A stretch of DNA of 15,390 nt, from the NCBI GenBank assembly GCA_000004985.1, contig GG738966.1. One strand, written 5' to 3'. Made by a program: the position numbers and the translations under genes. The DNA is from Naegleria gruberi (Eukaryota). The stretch's first letter is position 1. Each line of letters opens with the position of its first letter. Shown here in pieces: positions 519-15,384 of the stretch. Below the pieces are notes generated by a model that had not been told where the DNA came from, ran no database searches, and worked only from the letters and a program-made list of their open reading frames with translations.

Positions 519-2024
519 TTATTGTTCATTGTTGGTGTAGTACTTTGAATCGTACTCGGCAAAGTATTTCGGAAGAGGCTTCTTACTTGTTGGTATACCC
601 AGAAAGTTACTGTATGCCTTTAACAAAGGGTCTTTGTTTCTGTTCTCAACTGCTGATTCACGTGTACTTTGGAAGTATTTGTTGTATGTGACTAATTGAT
701 CAATAAGGGATGTTTTGAATTCTGGTGGACCTCGGATCTCATTATTAGAAATGATATTCATCTTCAGTAATTCAAAAAATACAAATGCAAATACTTGTCC
801 AGTATCTTTCTGCCTAATTTTGTCCCTTTGTTGAGGAGTTAAGTTAAATGTTTTACCATTTAATTCAATAGAAAAGCTTTCTTCAGTATTGGTGAGTACT
901 GAATGAAATTCTTCTGGAATGCGATCATTTCCAACCAATTTACAAGTTTCCATAATAGCATATTCTGGTTTTACATATTTGGAGTGGGAAACAATATCGT
1001 TAAATATTTGACTGAGATATTTGGATTTTTGATTTGATTCTACAGTTTTAAATTCAAGTCTCATTTTCAAGTCTTCTATTTCCTTGCTTTTCTTGGCTGA
1101 TTCTGAAGCAAAATGGTTTTGTAGACGATTGGATTCTGCTAATTTCTTCTCGAGTTCTGCATTTTCTTTCTTCAAAAAATGATTCTCTGAATTATCTTTT
1201 TCTGTATCCTTGTCATCATTAATTGGAGGAACAGCAAATAGATAATTTGTTGAGGTAACATTTTCCTCCTCTTCATCCATCTCTTCAGGGTCCAAACCAA
1301 GTGGTTTAGCATATAGATTACTCAATGGGAAATCATAATATTTTCCCTCTTGATATTTTTCAATCATTTCAGTTGAGCAACAAGTATCACAATCTATTTT
1401 CCAATGTAAAAATTTACAATTACACTCTTGCTTTGTAAACGAAATCAATTCAACAATTGCAACCTTAAGAGGCTCTGTTTCATGTTTGAGATAATATCTA
1501 TCATGTTCATGCAACTTATTATATGGAACATGAGCTACATTTTGAAGATTATTCACTTTACGAAATTGTAATTCTCTGTCAAAATCAAAAAATGGCTTTA
1601 GCACTTTCTGTATTTGTTCAATTTTTTCAATTAAAAACTGAAACAATTCTTCAACAGGGAGAGAGTAGGAGACAGTGGGAAAGTTTTCAAATTCACTGTT
1701 CTTTCTTTGTAAATGTTTCAAGTATTCATTGTAGAGAATAAGGATGTATACTAATTGATGCTTCTTAAATAATTGTTTGATAATGGATTTATCTGCTCGT
1801 ACTGTGATTTCTTGTTTTCTCAAATTCTCAATAAAGTTTGTCAATTTACCCACTTCAGGAGGTCCCTTGTTAATGGTTGCTGGTAATAATTCAACAGAAT
1901 ACCATTGCATTCCGACTGGCTCAAGTGGTTTCATTCTTAACTCAGACTCATCTTTCTTCTTCTTTGAGGAAGAAGAACTGTTGCTTGCACTTTTACGCTT
2001 TTGGGTTTGTTGACTAGTAGACAT
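519..2024 (-). CDS. Intact 501-aa protein of unknown function. The N-terminus is Ser/Lys-rich and NLS-like. A conserved-looking N-domain is followed by a Cys cluster (CNCKFLHWKIDCDTCC), an acidic stretch, a short coiled-coil and a C-terminal globular-looking domain. The motif GPPE[VF] appears in both the N- and C-terminal domains.
   Basis: This is a 1,506-nt uninterrupted ORF. Its start sits in a yeast-like context (aaaacaaaATGtct). Composition is non-random, with domain-like hydrophobic periodicity flanked by low-complexity linkers. I could not assign a family from memory. Confidence 0.7.
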   Translation of the reverse strand: MSTSQQTQKRKSASNSSSSSKKKKDESELRMKPLEPVGMQWYSVELLPATINKGPPEVGKLTNFIENLRKQEITVRADKSIIKQLFKKHQLVYILILYNEYLKHLQRKNSEFENFPTVSYSLPVEELFQFLIEKIEQIQKVLKPFFDFDRELQFRKVNNLQNVAHVPYNKLHEHDRYYLKHETEPLKVAIVELISFTKQECNCKFLHWKIDCDTCCSTEMIEKYQEGKYYDFPLSNLYAKPLGLDPEEMDEEEENVTSTNYLFAVPPINDDKDTEKDNSENHFLKKENAELEKKLAESNRLQNHFASESAKKSKEIEDLKMRLEFKTVESNQKSKYLSQIFNDIVSHSKYVKPEYAIMETCKLVGNDRIPEEFHSVLTNTEESFSIELNGKTFNLTPQQRDKIRQKDTGQVFAFVFFELLKMNIISNNEIRGPPEFKTSLIDQLVTYNKYFQSTRESAVENRNKDPLLKAYSNFLGIPTSKKPLPKYFAEYDSKYYTNNEQ

Positions 2025-2171: not shown

Positions 2172-3159
2172 ATGGTTAAACATGCTTTTGCAAAATTTGC
2201 AACAGACTTTGAAAGGATTTCTGGTTTAAAATTTGTAAGTAATGGGAACCAATCACCAACCTTTCAAATGCCTGATTCTACTTCAAACACTACCCCTACA
2301 TCCAACAAAAGAAAAAGACAAATCTATGATTCCGAAATTTCTCCTGATGATAACAATTATTCAACATCAATACAATCTAAACAATACCATATTGGAGGTG
2401 ATGATACTTTTTCTTTTGCATTAAATATTGATAATGATTTGAATTCAATAACAACTTTAACATCACCAACACCCCTAGAACCTCATCAAATACAATCAGA
2501 AATATCTCCTATTAATAGTAATTCAACATCACTCAATTATCATCCTTTGAATGTTAAACCTGTTCATTTTACATCTCCAATAATTCAAAATAATAACCTT
2601 CTTTCCAAGCAATTATTTAATACATCATCAATGACAACCTATGAGTCAGTTATGGAAATATTATCATTTATTGTGGAAGCAAAGTTAAACAAAACTCAAT
2701 CACAAAGTTTTTTAAATCTACTTCACAAGTTATTACCTCCTTGTAATCTTCCAAATAAGATTTATGATTTGATGGATATGGTTACAGATATTGAGGATAA
2801 GTACTTCAAAGTTTACTTTTGTGAAGAATGTGAATCAGTTTCAAAACATTCTCAAACAATTTGTAAATGTGGTGAAATATTTGATATTAACAAATTCTTT
2901 TATATGATTGATTTTGATAAGGAATTATCTCTTAAATTTAATACACTTTCTTACTATGAGGCAACCAAATATTATTCTCATGAATATTTGAGAAAGAAGA
3001 AATCTCATGATATTATGCAAGAAATTTATGATGGGTCTACGTATCAAAAACAGATAAGTGCTTTTACAAGAATTCATAATAGTGAAGAAATTAATGTTTC
3101 CTATATTATTAACAATGATGGTGTTGCTGCTCATAAATCTAGTTCCAAATCCCCAGAGG
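2172..3159 (+). CDS. 5' part of a gene truncated by gap 1. About 230 aa of Ser/Thr/Asn-rich low complexity (with a KRKRQ NLS-like motif) lead into a region resembling the N-terminal zinc-finger/DG segment of Tnp2/Transposase_21 (CACTA/EnSpm-like) transposases. The gene is transposase-like or transposase-derived.
   Basis: The ORF is open from 2136, and the better start context is ATG 2172 (aaaaaaaATGg). It carries YFCEECESVSKHSQTICKCGEIF, which matches the Tnp2 pattern C-x2-C-x(about 10)-C-x-C-G. It also carries ...EIYDGSTYQKQISAFTRIHNSEEINVSYIINNDGVAAHKSSSKS, which matches the Tnp2 pattern ...D..W..F.......NV.LGL.TDGFNPF...SSS. The match is motif-level recall, not a database search. Confidence 0.5.
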
Positions 3160-5061
3160 NNNNNNNNNNNNNNNNNNNNNNNNNNNNNNNNNNNNNNNNN
3201 NNNNNNNNNNNNNNNNNNNNNNNNNNNNNNNNNNNNNNNNNNNNNNNNNNNNNNNNNNNNNNNNNNNNNNNNNNNNNNNNNNNNNNNNNNNNNNNNNNNN
3301 NNNNNNNNNNNNNNNNNNNNNNNNNNNNNNNNNNNNNNNNNNNNNNNNNNNNNNNNNNNNNNNNNNNNNNNNNNNNNNNNNNNNNNNNNNNNNNNNNNNN
3401 NNNNNNNNNNNNNNNNNNNNNNNNNNNNNNNNNNNNNNNNNNNNNNNNNNNNNNNNNNNNNNNNNNNNNNNNNNNNNNNNNNNNNNNNNNNNNNNNNNNN
3501 NNNNNNNNNNNNNNNNNNNNNNNNNNNNNNNNNNNNNNNNNNNNNNNNNNNNNNNNNNNNNNNNNNNNNNNNNNNNNNNNNNNNNNNNNNNNNNNNNNNN
3601 NNNNNNNNNNNNNNNNNNNNNNNNNNNNNNNNNNNNNNNNNNNNNNNNNNNNNNNNNNNNNNNNNNNNNNNNNNNNNNNNNNNNNNNNNNNNNNNNNNNN
3701 NNNNNNNNNNNNNNNNNNNNNNNNNNNNNNNNNNNNNNNNNNNNNNNNNNNNNNNNNNNNNNNNNNNNNNNNNNNNNNNNNNNNNNNNNNNNNNNNNNNN
3801 NNNNNNNNNNNNNNNNNNNNNNNNNNNNNNNNNNNNNNNNNNNNNNNNNNNNNNNNNNNNNNNNNNNNNNNNNNNNNNNNNNNNNNNNNNNNNNNNNNNN
3901 NNNNNNNNNNNNNNNNNNNNNNNNNNNNNNNNNNNNNNNNNNNNNNNNNNNNNNNNNNNNNNNNNNNNNNNNNNNNNNNNNNNNNNNNNNNNNNNNNNNN
4001 NNNNNNNNNNNNNNNNNNNNNNNNNNNNNNNNNNNNNNNNNNNNNNNNNNNNNNNNNNNNNNNNNNNNNNNNNNNNNNNNNNNNNNNNNNNNNNNNNNNN
4101 NNNNNNNNNNNNNNNNNNNNNNNNNNNNNNNNNNNNNNNNNNNNNNNNNNNNNNNNNNNNNNNNNNNNNNNNNNNNNNNNNNNNNNNNNNNNNNNNNNNN
4201 NNNNNNNNNNNNNNNNNNNNNNNNNNNNNNNNNNNNNNNNNNNNNNNNNNNNNNNNNNNNNNNNNNNNNNNNNNNNNNNNNNNNNNNNNNNNNNNNNNNN
4301 NNNNNNNNNNNNNNNNNNNNNNNNNNNNNNNNNNNNNNNNNNNNNNNNNNNNNNNNNNNNNNNNNNNNNNNNNNNNNNNNNNNNNNNNNNNNNNNNNNNN
4401 NNNNNNNNNNNNNNNNNNNNNNNNNNNNNNNNNNNNNNNNNNNNNNNNNNNNNNNNNNNNNNNNNNNNNNNNNNNNNNNNNNNNNNNNNNNNNNNNNNNN
4501 NNNNNNNNNNNNNNNNNNNNNNNNNNNNNNNNNNNNNNNNNNNNNNNNNNNNNNNNNNNNNNNNNNNNNNNNNNNNNNNNNNNNNNNNNNNNNNNNNNNN
4601 NNNNNNNNNNNNNNNNNNNNNNNNNNNNNNNNNNNNNNNNNNNNNNNNNNNNNNNNNNNNNNNNNNNNNNNNNNNNNNNNNNNNNNNNNNNNNNNNNNNN
4701 NNNNNNNNNNNNNNNNNNNNNNNNNNNNNNNNNNNNNNNNNNNNNNNNNNNNNNNNNNNNNNNNNNNNNNNNNNNNNNNNNNNNNNNNNNNNNNNNNNNN
4801 NNNNNNNNNNNNNNNNNNNNNNNNNNNNNNNNNNNNNNNNNNNNNNNNNNNNNNNNNNNNNNNNNNNNNNNNNNNNNNNNNNNNNNNNNNNNNNNNNNNN
4901 NNNNNNNNNNNNNNNNNNNNNNNNNNNNNNNNNNNNNNNNNNNNNNNNNNNNNNNNNNNNNNNNNNNNNNNNNNNNNNNNNNNNNNNNNNNNNNNNNNNN
5001 NNNNNNNNNNNNNNNNNNNNNNNNNNNNNNNNNNNNNNNNNNNNNNNNNNNNNNNNNNNNN
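3160..5061. other. Assembly gap 1 (1,902 N).
   Basis: Run of n characters. It hides the 3' part of the transposase-like gene and the 5' part of MAD1. Confidence 0.99.
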
Positions 5062-7744
5062 TCATCAACAAGTCTTAATGAATCTGTCAAGAATGTTCAA
5101 GGAACAAATGATGAAAATTTCGAAAATTATGTGCATGAAACTTTCGGAACAAATTCAAATAAGAATAATCAATCTATTGTGAATAGAAAACCAGCAATTA
5201 GTGTATTCGAGGATGAAAATATTGAAAAATCTACCATTGAGGAACAATATTTATTTGGTGCTGAGGATGAAGAACCATCGATGGAAACTAATGTAAATAG
5301 AAACTTTGAGAAAAGACCTTCTCAACAATCCAACAATCAATTTTCTTCTCCTTTGAAAAAGAGAAAATTAGCTTCACAACAATTAATTTCTAATGCTGGT
5401 CATACGGAAGTTGAGGATGAGGAAGAAGATTTGGCCAATTGTTCACTTGTCATTTCACCACCTCCTTTTGATGAAGAGGAAACATCCTCTGCTGCCAATA
5501 ACATGCTCTTTGGAAATGATGAAGAAAATGTGAGTGGACCAATATTGGAAGCAGGTCTCTACACTGGACGATCCAGGGATAGAAAGAGTAGAATTAAAAG
5601 TAGTTACTATGAGCCAGGATCACCACTCAATACTGGCCTTGAGAATAATCCTTCAATGATCATTTCGAGTTCACCACTCTTGAAATATACAGTACCATCG
5701 ACGGAGAGTGCCAGCAACAACAACATGCTAAATGATAGTATTACCAATAGAAGCTCTATTCTCAATGAGAGTCTCAGGGAGAGGGACGACATTATCGATC
5801 AATTGAATAATGAAGCTGAGGGAGAGAGAAGAAAACTCAAAGAATACAAGCTTCTCATCGAAAAACTTCAATCAGAGAATGCTCACCTCAAGCAACAAAA
5901 CTCTTCAATCAAAAAGAAGAATGAGGAAATACTGATAGAAACAGAAAAGGAAAATAACACTAGGGAACTTGAAATTCAATCTTTGAAAGAGAAAATTGCC
6001 GAACAACAAACCACTATTAACTTACAAAATCTTTCCAAGACTCAAAAAGAATCTAAATTTACAAGAAATTGAAAGTAAAATATCTGGAATCAACAAGACT
6101 GTAGAGACTTTGAAAAGTGATATTGTACAAAAGGACATTACCATAGAAACTCTCAATAGTCAAATTGAATCAATGAACAAACAATTGGAGGAAGCATCAA
6201 CTACCAATTCTGAACTAATGACCGTCTATCACTCTCAAAAACATGAATTTAATTTATTAAGCCATGAATATGAAATACTAACATTCAAGACTTCACAATA
6301 TGATTCAAAGATTCAAGAACTTGACCAATTACAAGATGAAATCAAGACACTCAAAGCAGAGCTAAATGAAAGAAATGAGGACAAGAAAAAGATACGAATC
6401 TTGGAAGCGGAATTGCAAAAGGCCAGTGAATCTCTCCAATCACAAGAAGTTCTCAAGGAAGCCATCAAGGACTTTGAATCTGAGTTGACCAAGTTGGAAG
6501 TTCTTCGAATTGAAAATAGTTCACTCGAGTCCAAGTTGTACAATACTGAATCACTTTTAAAGAGCTGGGAAAGTGCCTTCCCTAATAATACTCCATCGGA
6601 TGTAAACTACAATATCAAGTTACAAGCCAAGAAAATAACTCGCCTCGAAGAAACCATTCAAGAAGTGAATCAAGAAAAGTTTGACATTGCCAAGCATGTG
6701 GAACGTTTAACTGTGGAGTTGGAATCAAGGGAGACAGAATGTGCCGAGCTTCGAAATGAAAACAAGCAACTCGAAGAGAAACTGGCCAGCACTGAAGTAA
6801 AGCTCTTCGCTGCCAAGAACCAATTGGAGAGCTCTATGAAATTTGCTCACATCAACGACAAGGAAGAGGCTATGAATGCTGCTGCCGATGAGGAAACTAA
6901 GGAAAAGATAGGCCATCACATGAGTAGAATAGCTGCCCTTGAAAAGATCATTGAGGAGAAGGATGTAAATACTCGTGAACTATTTGAAAGATTGGATATT
7001 TTGCAAAAACAAATAATTGACAAACAGACTCTTATCGAAAACTTTGAACATGAAGTGGAGAAGGTTAATGCTCAAAAGTTGGAAGTTCAAACCAAATCAG
7101 ATGAATTACAGGTACGAGTTGAAAAATTGGAAAAGAACAGAGACGCTCTCGAATTGGAAATTGCAAACTATGAAAAGAGACTAGGAAAGGGAGAATACAA
7201 TAAGGAGAAATTCAAAATTCTTCACATGAAAATCAACCCAGAAATTGAGGCCAAAAAATCCAGTGACAATGACATTGAACGATTAAAGACAGAAAATAAG
7301 CTCCTCACCGAAGAAATTACCTCCCTCAAAGAGCAATTACAAATCTCCTCCAACGATAATGCCTCCAGCTCAATTAACAATCAACGAGAAATTGAAAAGC
7401 TCAAAGAAGAAAATGCAGATGCCCAACGCAGAATTACCAAGCTCAAAGAAGTTTTCCAAAAGAGAATTAACGAATTTAGAAAATCAATCTATCTCTTATT
7501 TGGTTTCAGAGTTGATGTCATTGAAAATAATCGATTCAGATTGAGCAGTATGTATGCAGAATCTCCAGAAGATTATCTCATCTTTGAAAGTGATGGAAAT
7601 GCCATGAAACTCTTAAACTCTGAATTTGCTTGTTCACTAGAGGAAAAATCCATGAGATTTTTAAAGAATTTCAGATCCATTCCTGGATTTTTATGTTCCA
7701 TTACTTTGGATTTATTCAACAAGCAAACCGTTTTCACCCAATAA
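5062..7744 (+). CDS. MAD1: Spindle assembly checkpoint protein MAD1. The 5' end is missing in gap 1. Frame 1 (5062-6072) and frame 2 (5996-7744) are two halves of one gene separated by a single-nucleotide frame disruption between about 6030 and 6072. The stop is TAA at 7742-7744.
   Basis: The C-terminal domain RINEFRKSIYLLFGFRVDVIENNRFRLSSMYAESPEDYLIFESDGN...SIPGFLCSITLDLFNKQTVF aligns with the Mad1 C-terminal/RLK region (compare S. cerevisiae ...FIDVVNSLLGFKLEF...QLPCFLATITLRLWEQRQ and human ...SIPAFLSSLTLELFSRQTVA). It is preceded by about 580 aa of heptad-rich coiled coil that continues seamlessly across the frame junction. Frame 1 has no stop from 5062 to 6072. Confidence 0.85.
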
Positions 7745-7821: not shown

Positions 7822-8993
7822 ATGAATATTACACAACCTAACTTTATCACCACGACATTGCAACAATTGTTGGAAATGGGATTTACGCACGAACAAGCCA
7901 CACAAATGATCATTGTTCTCGAACAAGAGAAAACAAAGCAATTGGAAATTAATTCAAAGAAGAGAAACATGGATGAAAATTCAGAATTTGATTCATTCGG
8001 AAAAAAGAGAAAACAAGATGAAGAATTGTTTCCTGATGAAATTATAGTTGAATTGTATCATATCTTTCTAATTTTGAAGGATTCCGATTAATGTTTGTCA
8101 GTAAACAATTTATGAAAGCTTGCCGATTAATTAGAAAATGGTTGATTACTTCGGATTGCACTACCGAATTATTAAGAATGTTTTGTGAATCGTCATTTGC
8201 TGAACAAATTCACTCTTTGGTGATTGATGTTCCAATCACTTGGGAATTATTCAATCAAATCAAACTTAATTTTACAAATTTGAAAGAGTTGAATCTGTAC
8301 GAAGTAGCATTTCTCGATTTTTCAAATTATTTTGAAAGCAACCATTTAGAATCTTTAATAGTTCGAAACTGTAATAACATTAATCTCAATTCATTGCATT
8401 TATTCAATTTACAACATATAGAATGTCCCCTAAAGTCATCCAGTGGTGTCAGTAATATCATTCATTCGAATACTTTCAGCTTAAAAAGTATTACACTGCA
8501 TGGGAATGGAAATGTGATTAAGGAGGCTCACTTGTTTAAAAATCTTCCAGCATTGGAATATCTTAAACTTGTCAGATTTAACATTCCAGTTTCACAATTT
8601 AAGGAAATATTGAATTGTAAAGGTTTAAAATCACTACATTTACAATTCATTACTAACACGAGTGCCATTCTTTTGGACCAAAAACATTCACAGTTGTTCA
8701 ATTTGCCAACATTAGAAAAATTAGAAAGTTATCGAGTAGATCTTGACCTTATGCAGATTCTTATCCAATCAATGATTGCTCCTCTATTGAAATATTTATC
8801 AATTGGGGTAAATGGTGTCTTTAATTTTACACTTTCAAAAGCCTTTAGAGAAAATACATCTCTATCAAATATTGAAAACTTGTCTATTGAGAATCAGATA
8901 GAAAATATGGAAATAATTGAAAATATTTGTGAAAAAATATCCAAGTTACCTTTAAACAAATTTGCCTTTTCTGGAAATTCACTGTGTTTCTCA
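7822..8993 (+). CDS. F-box/leucine-rich-repeat protein, an SCF substrate-adaptor-like protein, with a UBA-like N-terminus. It is a single gene interrupted by a -1 frame change at 8088-8091 (ORFs 7822-8091 and 8091-gap). The 3' end is lost in gap 2.
   Basis: The N-terminus LQQLLEMGFTHEQATQMIIVL matches the UBA pattern ..L.eMGF..e.a..AL. The F-box consensus LPdEIL..If..L...dL....VsK.W is reconstituted only by joining the end of ORF1 (FPDEIIVELYHIFLILKDSD) to the start of ORF2 (LMFVSKQFMKACRLIRKWL). Downstream there are at least 8 LRR-like L..L.L..C..I.D repeats (NLKELNLYEV, LESLIVRNCNNINL, LKSITLHGNGNVI, LEYLKLVRFNI, LKSLHLQFITN and others). Confidence 0.6.
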
Positions 8994-11900
8994 NNNNNNN
9001 NNNNNNNNNNNNNNNNNNNNNNNNNNNNNNNNNNNNNNNNNNNNNNNNNNNNNNNNNNNNNNNNNNNNNNNNNNNNNNNNNNNNNNNNNNNNNNNNNNNN
9101 NNNNNNNNNNNNNNNNNNNNNNNNNNNNNNNNNNNNNNNNNNNNNNNNNNNNNNNNNNNNNNNNNNNNNNNNNNNNNNNNNNNNNNNNNNNNNNNNNNNN
9201 NNNNNNNNNNNNNNNNNNNNNNNNNNNNNNNNNNNNNNNNNNNNNNNNNNNNNNNNNNNNNNNNNNNNNNNNNNNNNNNNNNNNNNNNNNNNNNNNNNNN
9301 NNNNNNNNNNNNNNNNNNNNNNNNNNNNNNNNNNNNNNNNNNNNNNNNNNNNNNNNNNNNNNNNNNNNNNNNNNNNNNNNNNNNNNNNNNNNNNNNNNNN
9401 NNNNNNNNNNNNNNNNNNNNNNNNNNNNNNNNNNNNNNNNNNNNNNNNNNNNNNNNNNNNNNNNNNNNNNNNNNNNNNNNNNNNNNNNNNNNNNNNNNNN
9501 NNNNNNNNNNNNNNNNNNNNNNNNNNNNNNNNNNNNNNNNNNNNNNNNNNNNNNNNNNNNNNNNNNNNNNNNNNNNNNNNNNNNNNNNNNNNNNNNNNNN
9601 NNNNNNNNNNNNNNNNNNNNNNNNNNNNNNNNNNNNNNNNNNNNNNNNNNNNNNNNNNNNNNNNNNNNNNNNNNNNNNNNNNNNNNNNNNNNNNNNNNNN
9701 NNNNNNNNNNNNNNNNNNNNNNNNNNNNNNNNNNNNNNNNNNNNNNNNNNNNNNNNNNNNNNNNNNNNNNNNNNNNNNNNNNNNNNNNNNNNNNNNNNNN
9801 NNNNNNNNNNNNNNNNNNNNNNNNNNNNNNNNNNNNNNNNNNNNNNNNNNNNNNNNNNNNNNNNNNNNNNNNNNNNNNNNNNNNNNNNNNNNNNNNNNNN
9901 NNNNNNNNNNNNNNNNNNNNNNNNNNNNNNNNNNNNNNNNNNNNNNNNNNNNNNNNNNNNNNNNNNNNNNNNNNNNNNNNNNNNNNNNNNNNNNNNNNNN
10001 NNNNNNNNNNNNNNNNNNNNNNNNNNNNNNNNNNNNNNNNNNNNNNNNNNNNNNNNNNNNNNNNNNNNNNNNNNNNNNNNNNNNNNNNNNNNNNNNNNNN
10101 NNNNNNNNNNNNNNNNNNNNNNNNNNNNNNNNNNNNNNNNNNNNNNNNNNNNNNNNNNNNNNNNNNNNNNNNNNNNNNNNNNNNNNNNNNNNNNNNNNNN
10201 NNNNNNNNNNNNNNNNNNNNNNNNNNNNNNNNNNNNNNNNNNNNNNNNNNNNNNNNNNNNNNNNNNNNNNNNNNNNNNNNNNNNNNNNNNNNNNNNNNNN
10301 NNNNNNNNNNNNNNNNNNNNNNNNNNNNNNNNNNNNNNNNNNNNNNNNNNNNNNNNNNNNNNNNNNNNNNNNNNNNNNNNNNNNNNNNNNNNNNNNNNNN
10401 NNNNNNNNNNNNNNNNNNNNNNNNNNNNNNNNNNNNNNNNNNNNNNNNNNNNNNNNNNNNNNNNNNNNNNNNNNNNNNNNNNNNNNNNNNNNNNNNNNNN
10501 NNNNNNNNNNNNNNNNNNNNNNNNNNNNNNNNNNNNNNNNNNNNNNNNNNNNNNNNNNNNNNNNNNNNNNNNNNNNNNNNNNNNNNNNNNNNNNNNNNNN
10601 NNNNNNNNNNNNNNNNNNNNNNNNNNNNNNNNNNNNNNNNNNNNNNNNNNNNNNNNNNNNNNNNNNNNNNNNNNNNNNNNNNNNNNNNNNNNNNNNNNNN
10701 NNNNNNNNNNNNNNNNNNNNNNNNNNNNNNNNNNNNNNNNNNNNNNNNNNNNNNNNNNNNNNNNNNNNNNNNNNNNNNNNNNNNNNNNNNNNNNNNNNNN
10801 NNNNNNNNNNNNNNNNNNNNNNNNNNNNNNNNNNNNNNNNNNNNNNNNNNNNNNNNNNNNNNNNNNNNNNNNNNNNNNNNNNNNNNNNNNNNNNNNNNNN
10901 NNNNNNNNNNNNNNNNNNNNNNNNNNNNNNNNNNNNNNNNNNNNNNNNNNNNNNNNNNNNNNNNNNNNNNNNNNNNNNNNNNNNNNNNNNNNNNNNNNNN
11001 NNNNNNNNNNNNNNNNNNNNNNNNNNNNNNNNNNNNNNNNNNNNNNNNNNNNNNNNNNNNNNNNNNNNNNNNNNNNNNNNNNNNNNNNNNNNNNNNNNNN
11101 NNNNNNNNNNNNNNNNNNNNNNNNNNNNNNNNNNNNNNNNNNNNNNNNNNNNNNNNNNNNNNNNNNNNNNNNNNNNNNNNNNNNNNNNNNNNNNNNNNNN
11201 NNNNNNNNNNNNNNNNNNNNNNNNNNNNNNNNNNNNNNNNNNNNNNNNNNNNNNNNNNNNNNNNNNNNNNNNNNNNNNNNNNNNNNNNNNNNNNNNNNNN
11301 NNNNNNNNNNNNNNNNNNNNNNNNNNNNNNNNNNNNNNNNNNNNNNNNNNNNNNNNNNNNNNNNNNNNNNNNNNNNNNNNNNNNNNNNNNNNNNNNNNNN
11401 NNNNNNNNNNNNNNNNNNNNNNNNNNNNNNNNNNNNNNNNNNNNNNNNNNNNNNNNNNNNNNNNNNNNNNNNNNNNNNNNNNNNNNNNNNNNNNNNNNNN
11501 NNNNNNNNNNNNNNNNNNNNNNNNNNNNNNNNNNNNNNNNNNNNNNNNNNNNNNNNNNNNNNNNNNNNNNNNNNNNNNNNNNNNNNNNNNNNNNNNNNNN
11601 NNNNNNNNNNNNNNNNNNNNNNNNNNNNNNNNNNNNNNNNNNNNNNNNNNNNNNNNNNNNNNNNNNNNNNNNNNNNNNNNNNNNNNNNNNNNNNNNNNNN
11701 NNNNNNNNNNNNNNNNNNNNNNNNNNNNNNNNNNNNNNNNNNNNNNNNNNNNNNNNNNNNNNNNNNNNNNNNNNNNNNNNNNNNNNNNNNNNNNNNNNNN
11801 NNNNNNNNNNNNNNNNNNNNNNNNNNNNNNNNNNNNNNNNNNNNNNNNNNNNNNNNNNNNNNNNNNNNNNNNNNNNNNNNNNNNNNNNNNNNNNNNNNNN

Positions 11901-13498
11901 NNNNNNNNNNNNNNNNNNNNNNNNNNNNNNNNNNNNNNNNNNNNNNNNNNNNNNNNNNNNNNNNNNNNNNNNNNNNNNNNNNNNNNNNNNNNNNNNNNNN
12001 NNNNNNNNNNNNNNNNNNNNNNNNNNNNNNNNNNNNNNNNNNNNNNNNNNNNNNNNNNNNNNNNNNNNNNNNNNNNNNNNNNNNNNNNNNNNNNNNNNNN
12101 NNNNNNNNNNNNNNNNNNNNNNNNNNNNNNNNNNNNNNNNNNNNNNNNNNNNNNNNNNNNNNNNNNNNNNNNNNNNNNNNNNNNNNNNNNNNNNNNNNNN
12201 NNNNNNNNNNNNNNNNNNNNNNNNNNNNNNNNNNNNNNNNNNNNNNNNNNNNNNNNNNNNNNNNNNNNNNNNNNNNNNNNNNNNNNNNNNNNNNNNNNNN
12301 NNNNNNNNNNNNNNNNNNNNNNNNNNNNNNNNNNNNNNNNNNNNNNNNNNNNNNNNNNNNNNNNNNNNNNNNNNNNNNNNNNNNNNNNNNNNNNNNNNNN
12401 NNNNNNNNNNNNNNNNNNNNNNNNNNNNNNNNNNNNNNNNNNNNNNNNNNNNNNNNNNNNNNNNNNNNNNNNNNNNNNNNNNNNNNNNNNNNNNNNNNNN
12501 NNNNNNNNNNNNNNNNNNNNNNNNNNNNNNNNNNNNNNNNNNNNNNNNNNNNNNNNNNNNNNNNNNNNNNNNNNNNNNNNNNNNNNNNNNNNNNNNNNNN
12601 NNNNNNNNNNNNNNNNNNNNNNNNNNNNNNNNNNNNNNNNNNNNNNNNNNNNNNNNNNNNNNNNNNNNNNNNNNNNNNNNNNNNNNNNNNNNNNNNNNNN
12701 NNNNNNNNNNNNNNNNNNNNNNNNNNNNNNNNNNNNNNNNNNNNNNNNNNNNNNNNNNNNNNNNNNNNNNNNNNNNNNNNNNNNNNNNNNNNNNNNNNNN
12801 NNNNNNNNNNNNNNNNNNNNNNNNNNNNNNNNNNNNNNNNNNNNNNNNNNNNNNNNNNNNNNNNNNNNNNNNNNNNNNNNNNNNNNNNNNNNNNNNNNNN
12901 NNNNNNNNNNNNNNNNNNNNNNNNNNNNNNNNNNNNNNNNNNNNNNNNNNNNNNNNNNNNNNNNNNNNNNNNNNNNNNNNNNNNNNNNNNNNNNNNNNNN
13001 NNNNNNNNNNNNNNNNNNNNNNNNNNNNNNNNNNNNNNNNNNNNNNNNNNNNNNNNNNNNNNNNNNNNNNNNNNNNNNNNNNNNNNNNNNNNNNNNNNNN
13101 NNNNNNNNNNNNNNNNNNNNNNNNNNNNNNNNNNNNNNNNNNNNNNNNNNNNNNNNNNNNNNNNNNNNNNNNNNNNNNNNNNNNNNNNNNNNNNNNNNNN
13201 NNNNNNNNNNNNNNNNNNNNNNNNNNNNNNNNNNNNNNNNNNNNNNNNNNNNNNNNNNNNNNNNNNNNNNNNNNNNNNNNNNNNNNNNNNNNNNNNNNNN
13301 NNNNNNNNNNNNNNNNNNNNNNNNNNNNNNNNNNNNNNNNNNNNNNNNNNNNNNNNNNNNNNNNNNNNNNNNNNNNNNNNNNNNNNNNNNNNNNNNNNNN
13401 NNNNNNNNNNNNNNNNNNNNNNNNNNNNNNNNNNNNNNNNNNNNNNNNNNNNNNNNNNNNNNNNNNNNNNNNNNNNNNNNNNNNNNNNNNNNNNNNNN
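8994..13498. other. Assembly gap 2 (4,505 N).
   Basis: Run of n characters. It hides the 3' part of the F-box/LRR gene and the 3' part of the Rho-family GTPase gene. Confidence 0.99.
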
Positions 13499-14415: not shown

Positions 14416-15384
14416 ATGGTGTTCCTGCAGTTGATGAAGGAAGCAATGTNNNNNNNNNNNNNNNNNNNNNNNNNNNNNNNNNNNNNNNNNNNNNNNNNNT
14501 GCTCAAATTCAAGCAAAGCACAACACTTTCAAAATTCAAAGAGAGAATCTATACCCACTAATAGTAAGGATTCAAATTCGCCGAAATTAACAACATCCTT
14601 ATCGAATGAAACATTCTATTCAGAGAACCGCAGTGAAATAAGTCCTCCTGATCCATTTCAGTCTTCACAAAAGGGAGTTCCCTCCAAACTGTCCTCAACC
14701 AATTCTAATCAACAAGAAAAAGATTCTTCACCACTTAGTAAGGAAACTTTTACTCCAGTAGTTGCTTTTAGTCCAATTCTTACTGATATTGAAGATGATT
14801 CAAAGGCAATTTACATGCATCCATATCATGGAAGCTTGCCTCCCCTTAGTCCAAGCAATTCAACATGCTCTTCAAAGACCTCTTCAAGCAATTGCAGCAC
14901 TCTTTCATCTCCTAAAGAGAAGATCACATCCCCATCTCATTCATCATCGTACATTACTGCATCTGCTACATACTCATCTTCACCATCACCATCATCAACA
15001 ACATCAGGAGTTGCAACTAGCTCTTCTCCAACTACACTCATCCAACCATCGTCAACAGCATCTGTTAATGCATCTACATCTAACACAACACCAGAAACAA
15101 TAACATCCACCCCAATAATCTCAAAAGAAACACCCAAACCAACCATTGAGATCAGTAAAGTGTCGAATACTGCTCCGACTACATCTTCGCCAATTTCCAA
15201 AGATAAATTAAAGAGAGCTAGACCTCTTTCTGCAACCAAAAATCCACTGGTTCAATCTCTGACATTGGAAAAATTTAAAGACGATTTAGCTATTGGAAGA
15301 AAATCGAAATCAAATATCATTTCAGATAATTCAGTCAAAGTACCTTACAGCTCTTCACTAACTAGATCAGGGAAGAACCATTAA
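14416..15384 (+). CDS. Ser/Thr/Pro/Asn-rich low-complexity protein, possibly a regulatory or cell-surface protein. The candidate start ATG is at 14416 (aaaaaaaatATGg). The body is open in frame 1 from 14500 to TAA at 15382-15384 and is interrupted by the 50-N gap 14450-14499, so true length and phase across the gap are unknown.
   Basis: A continuous 295-codon open frame follows the gap, with strong Ser/Thr bias (SSSNCSTLSSPKEKITSPSHSSSYITASATYSSSPSPSSTTSG...). The first in-frame ATG after the gap is far downstream (about 14816), so the start must lie in or before the gap. Confidence 0.5.
   Translation: MVFLQLMKEAMXXXXXXXXXXXXXXXXXCSNSSKAQHFQNSKRESIPTNSKDSNSPKLTTSLSNETFYSENRSEISPPDPFQSSQKGVPSKLSSTNSNQQEKDSSPLSKETFTPVVAFSPILTDIEDDSKAIYMHPYHGSLPPLSPSNSTCSSKTSSSNCSTLSSPKEKITSPSHSSSYITASATYSSSPSPSSTTSGVATSSSPTTLIQPSSTASVNASTSNTTPETITSTPIISKETPKPTIEISKVSNTAPTTSSPISKDKLKRARPLSATKNPLVQSLTLEKFKDDLAIGRKSKSNIISDNSVKVPYSSSLTRSGKNH
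14450..14499. other. Assembly gap 3, exactly 50 N, a conventional placeholder for a gap of unknown size.
   Basis: Run of 50 n characters. This is not a multiple of 3, so the apparent in-frame continuity of the flanking ORF in the six-frame track is coincidental. Confidence 0.95.

What the first reader, a model, noticed from the sequence alone, without database searches (positions are those of the whole stretch)
5996..6072. Frame disruption (+1) inside the MAD1 coiled-coil
The Mad1 coiled-coil reads in frame 1 up to ...TTINLQNLSKTQKESKFTRN* (stop 6070-6072) and continues in frame 2 as ...NLNLQEIESKISGINKTVETLKSD... through to the conserved C-terminal domain. The two frames overlap for 77 nt with no room or signals for an intron: there is no GTATGT or GTAAGT donor, no branch site, and the overlap is open in both frames. 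A single-base indel is implied, most plausibly at the A5 run 'caaaaagaa' at 6044-6049. The cause is either a homopolymer sequencing error in a low-quality draft, a genuine pseudogenising mutation of a checkpoint gene, or (least likely) programmed frameshifting.
Basis: seen in the sequence. Interest (0 to 1): 0.5.

Follow-up and report, generated by a model that had tools for sequence, protein, structure and literature searches.

The report
One extra base splits Naegleria MAD1
A single surplus A in a small, gap-ridden Naegleria gruberi draft scaffold breaks the otherwise intact spindle-checkpoint gene MAD1 into two reading frames; it is most likely a sequencing error and matters mainly because it truncates the public gene model.

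Summary
The window is a whole 15,390-bp Naegleria gruberi scaffold, 42% of it N. The upstream MAD1 frame ends at TGA 6070-6072. The +1 frame is open from 5996 to 7744 and carries the Pfam MAD domain, the Mad2-interaction motif (KILHMKINP) and the C-terminal domain.

The N. lovaniensis orthologue (1207 aa) aligns to frame 1 up to 6051 and to frame 2 from 6044. One surplus base therefore lies in 6044-6051. Removing an A from the A5 run (6044-6048) gives TQKNL. Removing an A from GAA (6050-6051) gives TQKDL, which matches the SQKDL that N. lovaniensis and N. fowleri both read in frame.

An intron is excluded. There is no GT anywhere in 5772-6072, and the homologue alignment leaves no gap at the junction.

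Programmed frameshifting is very unlikely:
- the site is not conserved;
- the next codon, GAA, is the commonest codon in the window;
- there is no known shift heptamer;
- downstream RNA structure is no better than shuffles (z = 0.36).

The 556 downstream codons have no other lesion, so this is not an old pseudogene.

The likeliest cause is a base-calling or assembly error in a low-coverage Sanger contig. A recent or allelic real mutation cannot be excluded without reads. The finding is ordinary and of low interest, with one practical consequence: the public model is a truncated chimera.

The parts
5062..6048 (+). MAD1, N-terminal part (disordered region plus the start of the coiled coil), upstream frame. 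The true start codon lies in the N gap 3160-5061.
   Evidence: tblastn of N. lovaniensis MAD1 residues 289-651 onto 5083-6051 in frame 1. The repaired protein matches Pfam MAD profile positions 12-661.
6044..6051 (+). Interval holding the one surplus base (CAAAAAGAA): either the A5 run at 6044-6048 or the AA at 6050-6051.
   Evidence: The frame-1 and frame-2 tblastn segments meet here. N. lovaniensis has TCA CAA AAG GAC TTG and N. fowleri has TCC CAA AAA GAC TTG, both in frame. The alignment is gapless across the junction after repair.
6070..6072 (+). Premature TGA in the upstream frame, 7 codons after the shift. It is the end of the public gene model P0002.
6049..7744 (+). MAD1, remainder of the coiled coil, Mad2-interaction motif (KILHMKINP, about 7223-7249) and C-terminal domain, in the +1 frame.
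   Evidence: Pfam PF05557 MAD, E = 5.4e-57, profile positions 95-661. phmmer to human MAD1 structures: 4DZO (CTD), E = 1.9e-25, and 1GO4 (Mad2-binding region), E = 7e-6, with fkilhmkinpe aligned to tkvlhmslnpt. tblastn of N. lovaniensis residues 649-1207 onto 6044-7741 at 58% identity.
3160..5061 (.). Scaffold gap of 1902 N. It hides the 5' end of MAD1 and is bridged as a false intron by the public gene model.

Best explanation
The window is a small draft scaffold of Naegleria gruberi NEG-M that carries the organism's only assembled MAD1 gene. The gene is intact apart from one surplus A within CAAAAAGAA (6044-6051). That base pushes the reading frame +1 and brings a TGA into frame 7 codons later. 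The most likely cause is a base-calling or consensus error in a thinly covered Sanger contig: a 3.9-kb contig between two gaps, with the site about 985 nt from the contig edge. In the organism the gene would then be one ORF encoding a normal MAD1 with N-terminal region, coiled coil, Mad2-interaction motif and C-terminal domain. What is shown: the location of the shift, the continuity of homology across it, the absence of intron and recoding signals, and the absence of any other lesion. What is inferred: that the surplus base is an artefact and not a mutation.
For: Organism and scaffold: P0002, 'predicted protein [Naegleria gruberi]', sits on a contig of 15,390 bp, the same length as the window. 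The scaffold has 6,457 N in three runs. PMC9928731 Table 1 lists N. gruberi NEG-M as sequenced by Sanger. Shift location: the N. lovaniensis MAD1 aligns to frame 1 up to 6051 and to frame 2 from 6044. The Pfam MAD match grows from profile positions 95-661 to 12-661 once one A is removed. [quoted passage not shown] Frame 2 (NLNLQEI) matches the orthologues (DLMIAEV, DLMLAEI) between the shift and the TGA, whereas frame 1 (ESKFTRN) does not. No other lesion: 0 stops in 556 downstream codons, P about 1e-20 at the off-frame stop rate, and the MIM and CTD are conserved with human MAD1. No second N. gruberi MAD1 turned up in 5.8 billion proteins. As precedent in the same gene, the N. fowleri Nanopore assembly carries four homopolymer deletions that split its MAD1 into two models.
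Against: No reads, quality values or transcripts were available, so the artefact itself is not demonstrated. Searches for an independent N. gruberi copy found nothing: the junction peptide search and the metagenome DNA pattern search. Sanger consensus is usually accurate where coverage is normal. NEG-M is a long-cultured, heterozygous laboratory strain in which a recent or allele-specific frameshift is possible. A suspected second frame break 2 kb downstream, which would have indicated poor sequence quality, could not be confirmed.
Confidence: 0.72

Rival explanations
1. It is a real, recent 1-nt insertion in MAD1 of strain NEG-M, either fixed or on one allele. It gives a truncated N-terminal product and possibly a separate C-terminal product from an internal ATG, so the laboratory strain has a weakened or lost spindle checkpoint.
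For: The sequence as deposited shows the frameshift. No second, intact N. gruberi copy exists in the protein collection. The strain is reported to be heterozygous (PMC9928731). Every sequence feature seen here is equally compatible with a very recent mutation.
Against: The gene is otherwise perfectly preserved: 556 open codons, and a MIM and CTD conserved with human MAD1. Any inactivation would therefore have to be very recent. The site lies in a short contig of a gap-rich scaffold, where consensus errors are expected.
Confidence: 0.22
2. It is programmed +1 ribosomal frameshifting, or transcriptional slippage, at CAA-AAA-G. Full-length MAD1 would be made by recoding and a short form by standard decoding.
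For: A tRNA-Lys on AAA (6046-6048) could in principle re-pair with AAG (6047-6049), and the result would be the homologous TQKNL reading (inference).
Against: The shift is not conserved: N. lovaniensis and N. fowleri are in frame at the same codons. The A-site codon GAA is the commonest codon in the window's genes, at 82 per 1000, so no pause is expected. No known +1 heptamer is present, and the shift is 7 codons before the stop, not at it. Downstream RNA folds no better than shuffles, z = 0.36. A run of 5 A is too short for efficient polymerase slippage (established knowledge). Ten other A5-A6 runs in the same gene are read normally.
Confidence: 0.02
3. It is a spliceosomal intron whose length is 3n+1 and which joins the two frames.
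For: Naegleria genes do have GT-AG introns: the N. lovaniensis MAD1 has one of 101 nt, GTAAGT...CAG. A TACTAAC string occurs at about 6273.
Against: There is no GT dinucleotide anywhere in 5772-6072. The only frame-compatible GT donors (5708, 5738, 5771) are poor and would remove at least 98 codons that align to intron-free N. lovaniensis coding sequence. Homology is contiguous residue by residue across the junction.
Confidence: 0.01

Closest known systems
MAD1 / MAD1L1 spindle assembly checkpoint protein (Pfam PF05557; human structures 1GO4 and 4DZO)
   Same: The repaired protein matches nearly the full-length Pfam MAD profile. It has a Mad2-interaction motif, KILHMKINP, against human KVLHMSLNP. 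It has a C-terminal domain with E = 1.9e-25 to human MAD1 CTD. It has a long N-terminal coiled coil and a 54%-identical orthologue in N. lovaniensis.
   Different: As deposited, the gene is split by a +1 frame change at 6044-6051, and its 5' end is hidden in a scaffold gap. The Naegleria proteins carry a long, poorly conserved N-terminal extension (1207 aa in N. lovaniensis).
Homopolymer indel errors in draft eukaryotic assemblies, for example MAD1 in the N. fowleri ATCC 30894 Nanopore assembly
   Same: It is a single-base length change in an A-rich run inside an otherwise conserved ORF, and it splits or truncates the gene model. Comparable frame errors in heterolobosean assemblies were repaired with read data in bioRxiv 10.64898/2026.08.18.745565.
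   Different: Here the change is an insertion in a Sanger assembly and there is only one. N. fowleri has four deletions in about 550 nt.
Programmed +1 frameshift sites (Ty1 CUU-AGG-C, antizyme UCC-UGA, Euplotes AAA-UAA)
   Same: Only the direction of the shift (+1) and a Lys AAA codon in the would-be P site.
   Different: There is no rare or stop codon in the A site, no conservation in orthologues and no stimulatory structure.

Membership tests
MAD1 (Pfam PF05557 MAD) | Significant match to the family profile over most of its length | tested here: met
   The downstream ORF alone scores 194 bits against a cutoff of 30, covering profile positions 95-661. The repaired protein covers profile positions 12-661.
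MAD1 (Pfam PF05557 MAD) | Mad2-interaction motif ([KR]-hydrophobic-hydrophobic-x-x-x-x-x-P) | tested here: met
   KILHMKINP aligns to human KVLHMSLNP in 1GO4.
MAD1 (Pfam PF05557 MAD) | Conserved C-terminal (RWD-like) domain | tested here: met
   E = 1.9e-25 to 4DZO, with 117 residues aligned. This is by sequence only; no structure was predicted.
Programmed +1 ribosomal frameshift | Shift site and frame change conserved in orthologues | tested here: not met
   N. lovaniensis and N. fowleri read the same codons in a single frame.
Programmed +1 ribosomal frameshift | Slowly decoded (rare or stop) codon in the A site at the shift | tested here: not met
   The A-site codon GAA is the most used codon in the window's ORFs, at 82 per 1000.
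Programmed +1 ribosomal frameshift | Stimulatory downstream RNA structure | tested here: not met
   For 6049-6150 the minimum free energy is -9.1 kcal/mol against a shuffle mean of -9.97, z = 0.36.
Spliceosomal intron | GT (or GC) donor and AG acceptor that bracket sequence absent from orthologous proteins | tested here: not met
   There is no GT in 5772-6072. Every frame-compatible candidate removes conserved coding sequence. The alignment is gapless at the junction.
Pseudogene (long-standing) | Several disabling lesions or loss of coding constraint | tested here: not met
   There is one lesion only and 556 downstream codons are open. Identity to N. lovaniensis is 58% downstream of the shift. 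A very recent inactivation is not excluded.
Sequencing or assembly error | Reads or independent sequence of the same strain that disagree with the consensus | not testable with these tools
   No reads or traces were available. Searches for an independent copy were empty.

The most novel reading that the evidence does not exclude
The extra A is real in strain NEG-M. The standard laboratory Naegleria gruberi would then lack full-length MAD1. It would either be making separate N- and C-terminal fragments or running mitosis with a crippled spindle checkpoint.
Probability: 0.2. Interest if true: 0.4.

Novelty: not a real feature. Interest (0 to 1): 0.12.

Why it matters
The consequence is practical, not biological. 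The only public N. gruberi protein that covers this gene (P0002, 646 aa) is a chimera of an unrelated upstream ORF and the N-terminal third of MAD1, and it ends at the false stop. The part carrying the Mad2-interaction motif and the C-terminal domain is in no retrieved protein model. A review (PMC5949338) notes that the MIM was reported absent from N. gruberi MAD1 and warns that annotated MAD1s may be partial. The motif is in fact present in the downstream ORF.

Tried and rejected
- Intron: I enumerated all GT/GC...AG pairs that would join the two frames. There is no GT in 5772-6072, and the remaining candidates delete conserved sequence.
- Frameshifting at the TGA itself (antizyme-like): rejected, because between 6049 and 6072 it is frame 2, not frame 1, that matches the orthologues.
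- Independent N. gruberi copy: a junction-spanning 123-aa peptide against 5.8 billion proteins gave no hit. A DNA pattern with a variable gap against metagenome contigs gave no hit. An exact look-up of P0002 in the contig collection found nothing on record.
- Second frame break in the neighbouring ORFs (7822-8091 and 8091-8993), as a sign of poor sequence: an F-box-like reading across the junction got no Pfam support and no homologues, so it is unconfirmed.
- Non-coding features: no Rfam family, tRNA or tandem repeat anywhere relevant.
- Literature: no paper found discusses this frameshift.
- dN/dS: not attempted, because the species are too divergent (about 54% protein identity) for synonymous rates to be informative about a recent event.

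Full report
**What the window is.** A protein search with the repaired MAD1 sequence returned a 100%-identical "predicted protein [Naegleria gruberi]" (P0002). Its contig is 15,390 bp, the same length as the window. The window is therefore a whole small scaffold of the N. gruberi NEG-M draft. It has 33% G+C and three N runs (3160-5061, 8994-13498, 14450-14499), which together make up 42% of the scaffold. PMC9928731 Table 1 lists the N. gruberi assembly as Sanger, N. fowleri ATCC 30894 as Nanopore and N. lovaniensis ATCC 30569 as PacBio.

**Checking the observation.** The frame in phase with 5062 reads ...SLKEKIAEQQTTINLQNLSKTQKESKFTRN and stops at TGA 6070-6072. The +1 frame is open from 5996 and runs to the stop at 7742-7744. 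The A5 run is at 6044-6048, not 6044-6049.
- Upstream of 5996 the coding frame has 0 stops in 311 codons, against 13 and 43 in the other two frames.
- Downstream of 6072 the +1 frame has 0 stops in 556 codons, against 56 and 32.
- At the off-frame stop rate, the chance of such an open stretch is about 1e-20.

**What the two halves are.**
- The downstream ORF alone matches Pfam MAD (PF05557) at E = 5.4e-57, starting at its residue 18 (about nt 6047) and at profile position 95.
- With one A removed, the joined protein matches profile positions 12-661.
- The C-terminal 265 residues match the human MAD1 C-terminal domain (4DZO, E = 1.9e-25) and the Mad2-binding segment (1GO4, E = 7e-6). In the latter, FKILHMKINPE aligns to human TKVLHMSLNPT, which is the Mad2-interaction motif.

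**Where the frame changes.** The best relative is N. lovaniensis MAD1 (P0001, 1207 aa, 54% identity over 97% of the query). In tblastn its residues 289-651 align to window 5083-6051 in frame 1, and residues 649-1207 align to 6044-7741 in frame 2. The switch therefore lies within 6044-6051. The sequences at that site are:

| Species | Codons | Reading |
|---|---|---|
| N. lovaniensis | TCA CAA AAG GAC TTG | S Q K D L |
| N. fowleri | TCC CAA AAA GAC TTG | S Q K D L |
| N. gruberi (as deposited) | ACT CAA AAA GAA TCT AAA | T Q K E S K |

Dropping one A from the A5 run gives TQKNL. Dropping one A from GAA (6050-6051) gives TQKDL, identical to the conserved QKDL. Both repairs give a gapless alignment across the junction; the only nearby indel is a one-residue gap about ten residues upstream. 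Between the shift and the TGA it is frame 2 (NLNLQEI) that resembles the orthologues (DLMIAEV, DLMLAEI), not frame 1 (ESKFTRN). The change of frame therefore happens at 6044-6051 and not at the stop codon.

**Intron.** Naegleria does splice. The N. lovaniensis MAD1 model has one 101-nt intron, GTAAGT...CAG, but it lies about 330 codons upstream of the orthologous site, and N. gruberi has none there. In the window there is no GT dinucleotide anywhere in 5772-6072. The only frame-compatible GT donors (5708, 5738, 5771) have poor sequences and would remove at least 98 codons that align to uninterrupted N. lovaniensis coding sequence. The conclusion is nevertheless correct.

**Recoding.** A +1 slip of tRNA-Lys from AAA to AAG would formally give the homologous protein. 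Several results speak against it:
- The orthologues are in frame at these codons.
- The codon that would sit in the A site, GAA, is the most frequent codon in the window's ORFs at 82 per 1000.
- No known +1 heptamer is present.
- The 102 nt downstream fold no better than shuffled sequence (z = 0.36).
- Ten other A5-A6 runs in the same gene are read without a shift.
- Five A's are too few for efficient transcriptional slippage (established knowledge).

**Pseudogene or error.** There is one lesion and no other sign of decay, so a long-standing pseudogene is excluded. A very recent or allele-specific mutation in this heterozygous laboratory strain is not excluded. The circumstantial case for an artefact has three parts:
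- The gene sits in a 3.9-kb contig (5062-8993) bounded by gaps in a tiny scaffold.
- The site is about 985 nt from the contig edge. This is roughly where the low-quality tail of an edge read would fall, which is an inference.
- The surplus base is an A in an A-rich string.

The same gene shows how such errors look in a sister genome. The N. fowleri Nanopore assembly has four homopolymer deletions relative to N. lovaniensis within about 550 nt (L002 about 7908, 8117, 8253, 8447). These split MAD1 into a 610-aa and a 408-aa model. None of them coincides with the N. gruberi site.

I could not find an independent N. gruberi sequence:
- the first protein search found no second copy;
- a junction peptide search found nothing;
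- a gapped DNA pattern found nothing in metagenome contigs.

The verdict on error versus mutation therefore rests on priors. I put error at about 0.72, real mutation at about 0.22, and recoding or an intron at about 0.03 together.

**Consequence for annotation.** P0002 (646 aa) starts at ATG 2172 in an unrelated Cys-rich ORF. It jumps the 1902-N gap as if it were an intron (GT at about 3152, AG at about 5108). It then continues in the MAD1 N-terminal region and ends at the false TGA. No N. gruberi protein covering the downstream 560 residues was retrieved. A review of MAD1 (PMC5949338) records that the MIM was reported absent from N. gruberi MAD1 and cautions that annotated sequences may be partial. 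The MIM is present in the unannotated downstream ORF. By comparison with N. lovaniensis residues 1-288, the real 5' end of the gene must lie inside the gap.

**Verdict.** It is an ordinary single-base frame error, or less probably a recent mutation, in a conserved gene of a draft assembly. It is not a new biological feature. N. gruberi RNA-seq data exist (bioRxiv 10.64898/2026.08.18.745565) and would settle the question in minutes.

Noticed in passing
window 2172-6072 (public model P0002): The public N. gruberi gene model is a chimera. An unrelated Cys-rich ORF (2172 to about 3151, no Pfam hit) is spliced across the 1902-N gap onto the MAD1 N-terminal region. The true MAD1 start must lie inside the gap.
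   Followed up: partly
window 7822-8993: An 89-aa ORF with a weak UBA-like hit ends at TAA 8089-8091, overlapping the ATG (8091) of the next, LRR-like ORF, which runs into the gap. Read together (…LFPDEIIVELYHIFLILKDSD / LMFVSKQFMKACRL…) they look F-box-like across a -1 frame change (GATTAATG against GATTTAATG), which would be a second indel in the same contig. Pfam gave no F-box hit and no homologues were found, so this is unconfirmed.
   Followed up: partly
L002 7900-8450 (N. fowleri VFQX01000040.1): MAD1 in the N. fowleri Nanopore assembly is broken by four homopolymer deletions relative to N. lovaniensis. It is annotated as two separate proteins (610 aa without a Pfam hit, and 408 aa with MAD).
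   Followed up: yes
window 6273-6279: A perfect TACTAAC branch-point-like string followed by AG lies inside the conserved coding frame (YEILTFK). There is no matching donor, so it is judged a chance occurrence.
   Followed up: yes
window 519-2024 (-) and 14416-15384 (+): Two long intact ORFs (501 aa and 322 aa) have no Pfam match. They were not investigated further.
   Followed up: no
window about 6015-6025 versus N. lovaniensis residues 636-640: There is a one-residue gap (TIN-LQ against AIQELQ) in the coiled coil about ten residues upstream of the frameshift. It may be a genuine lineage difference or a further small sequence problem in the same stretch.
   Followed up: no
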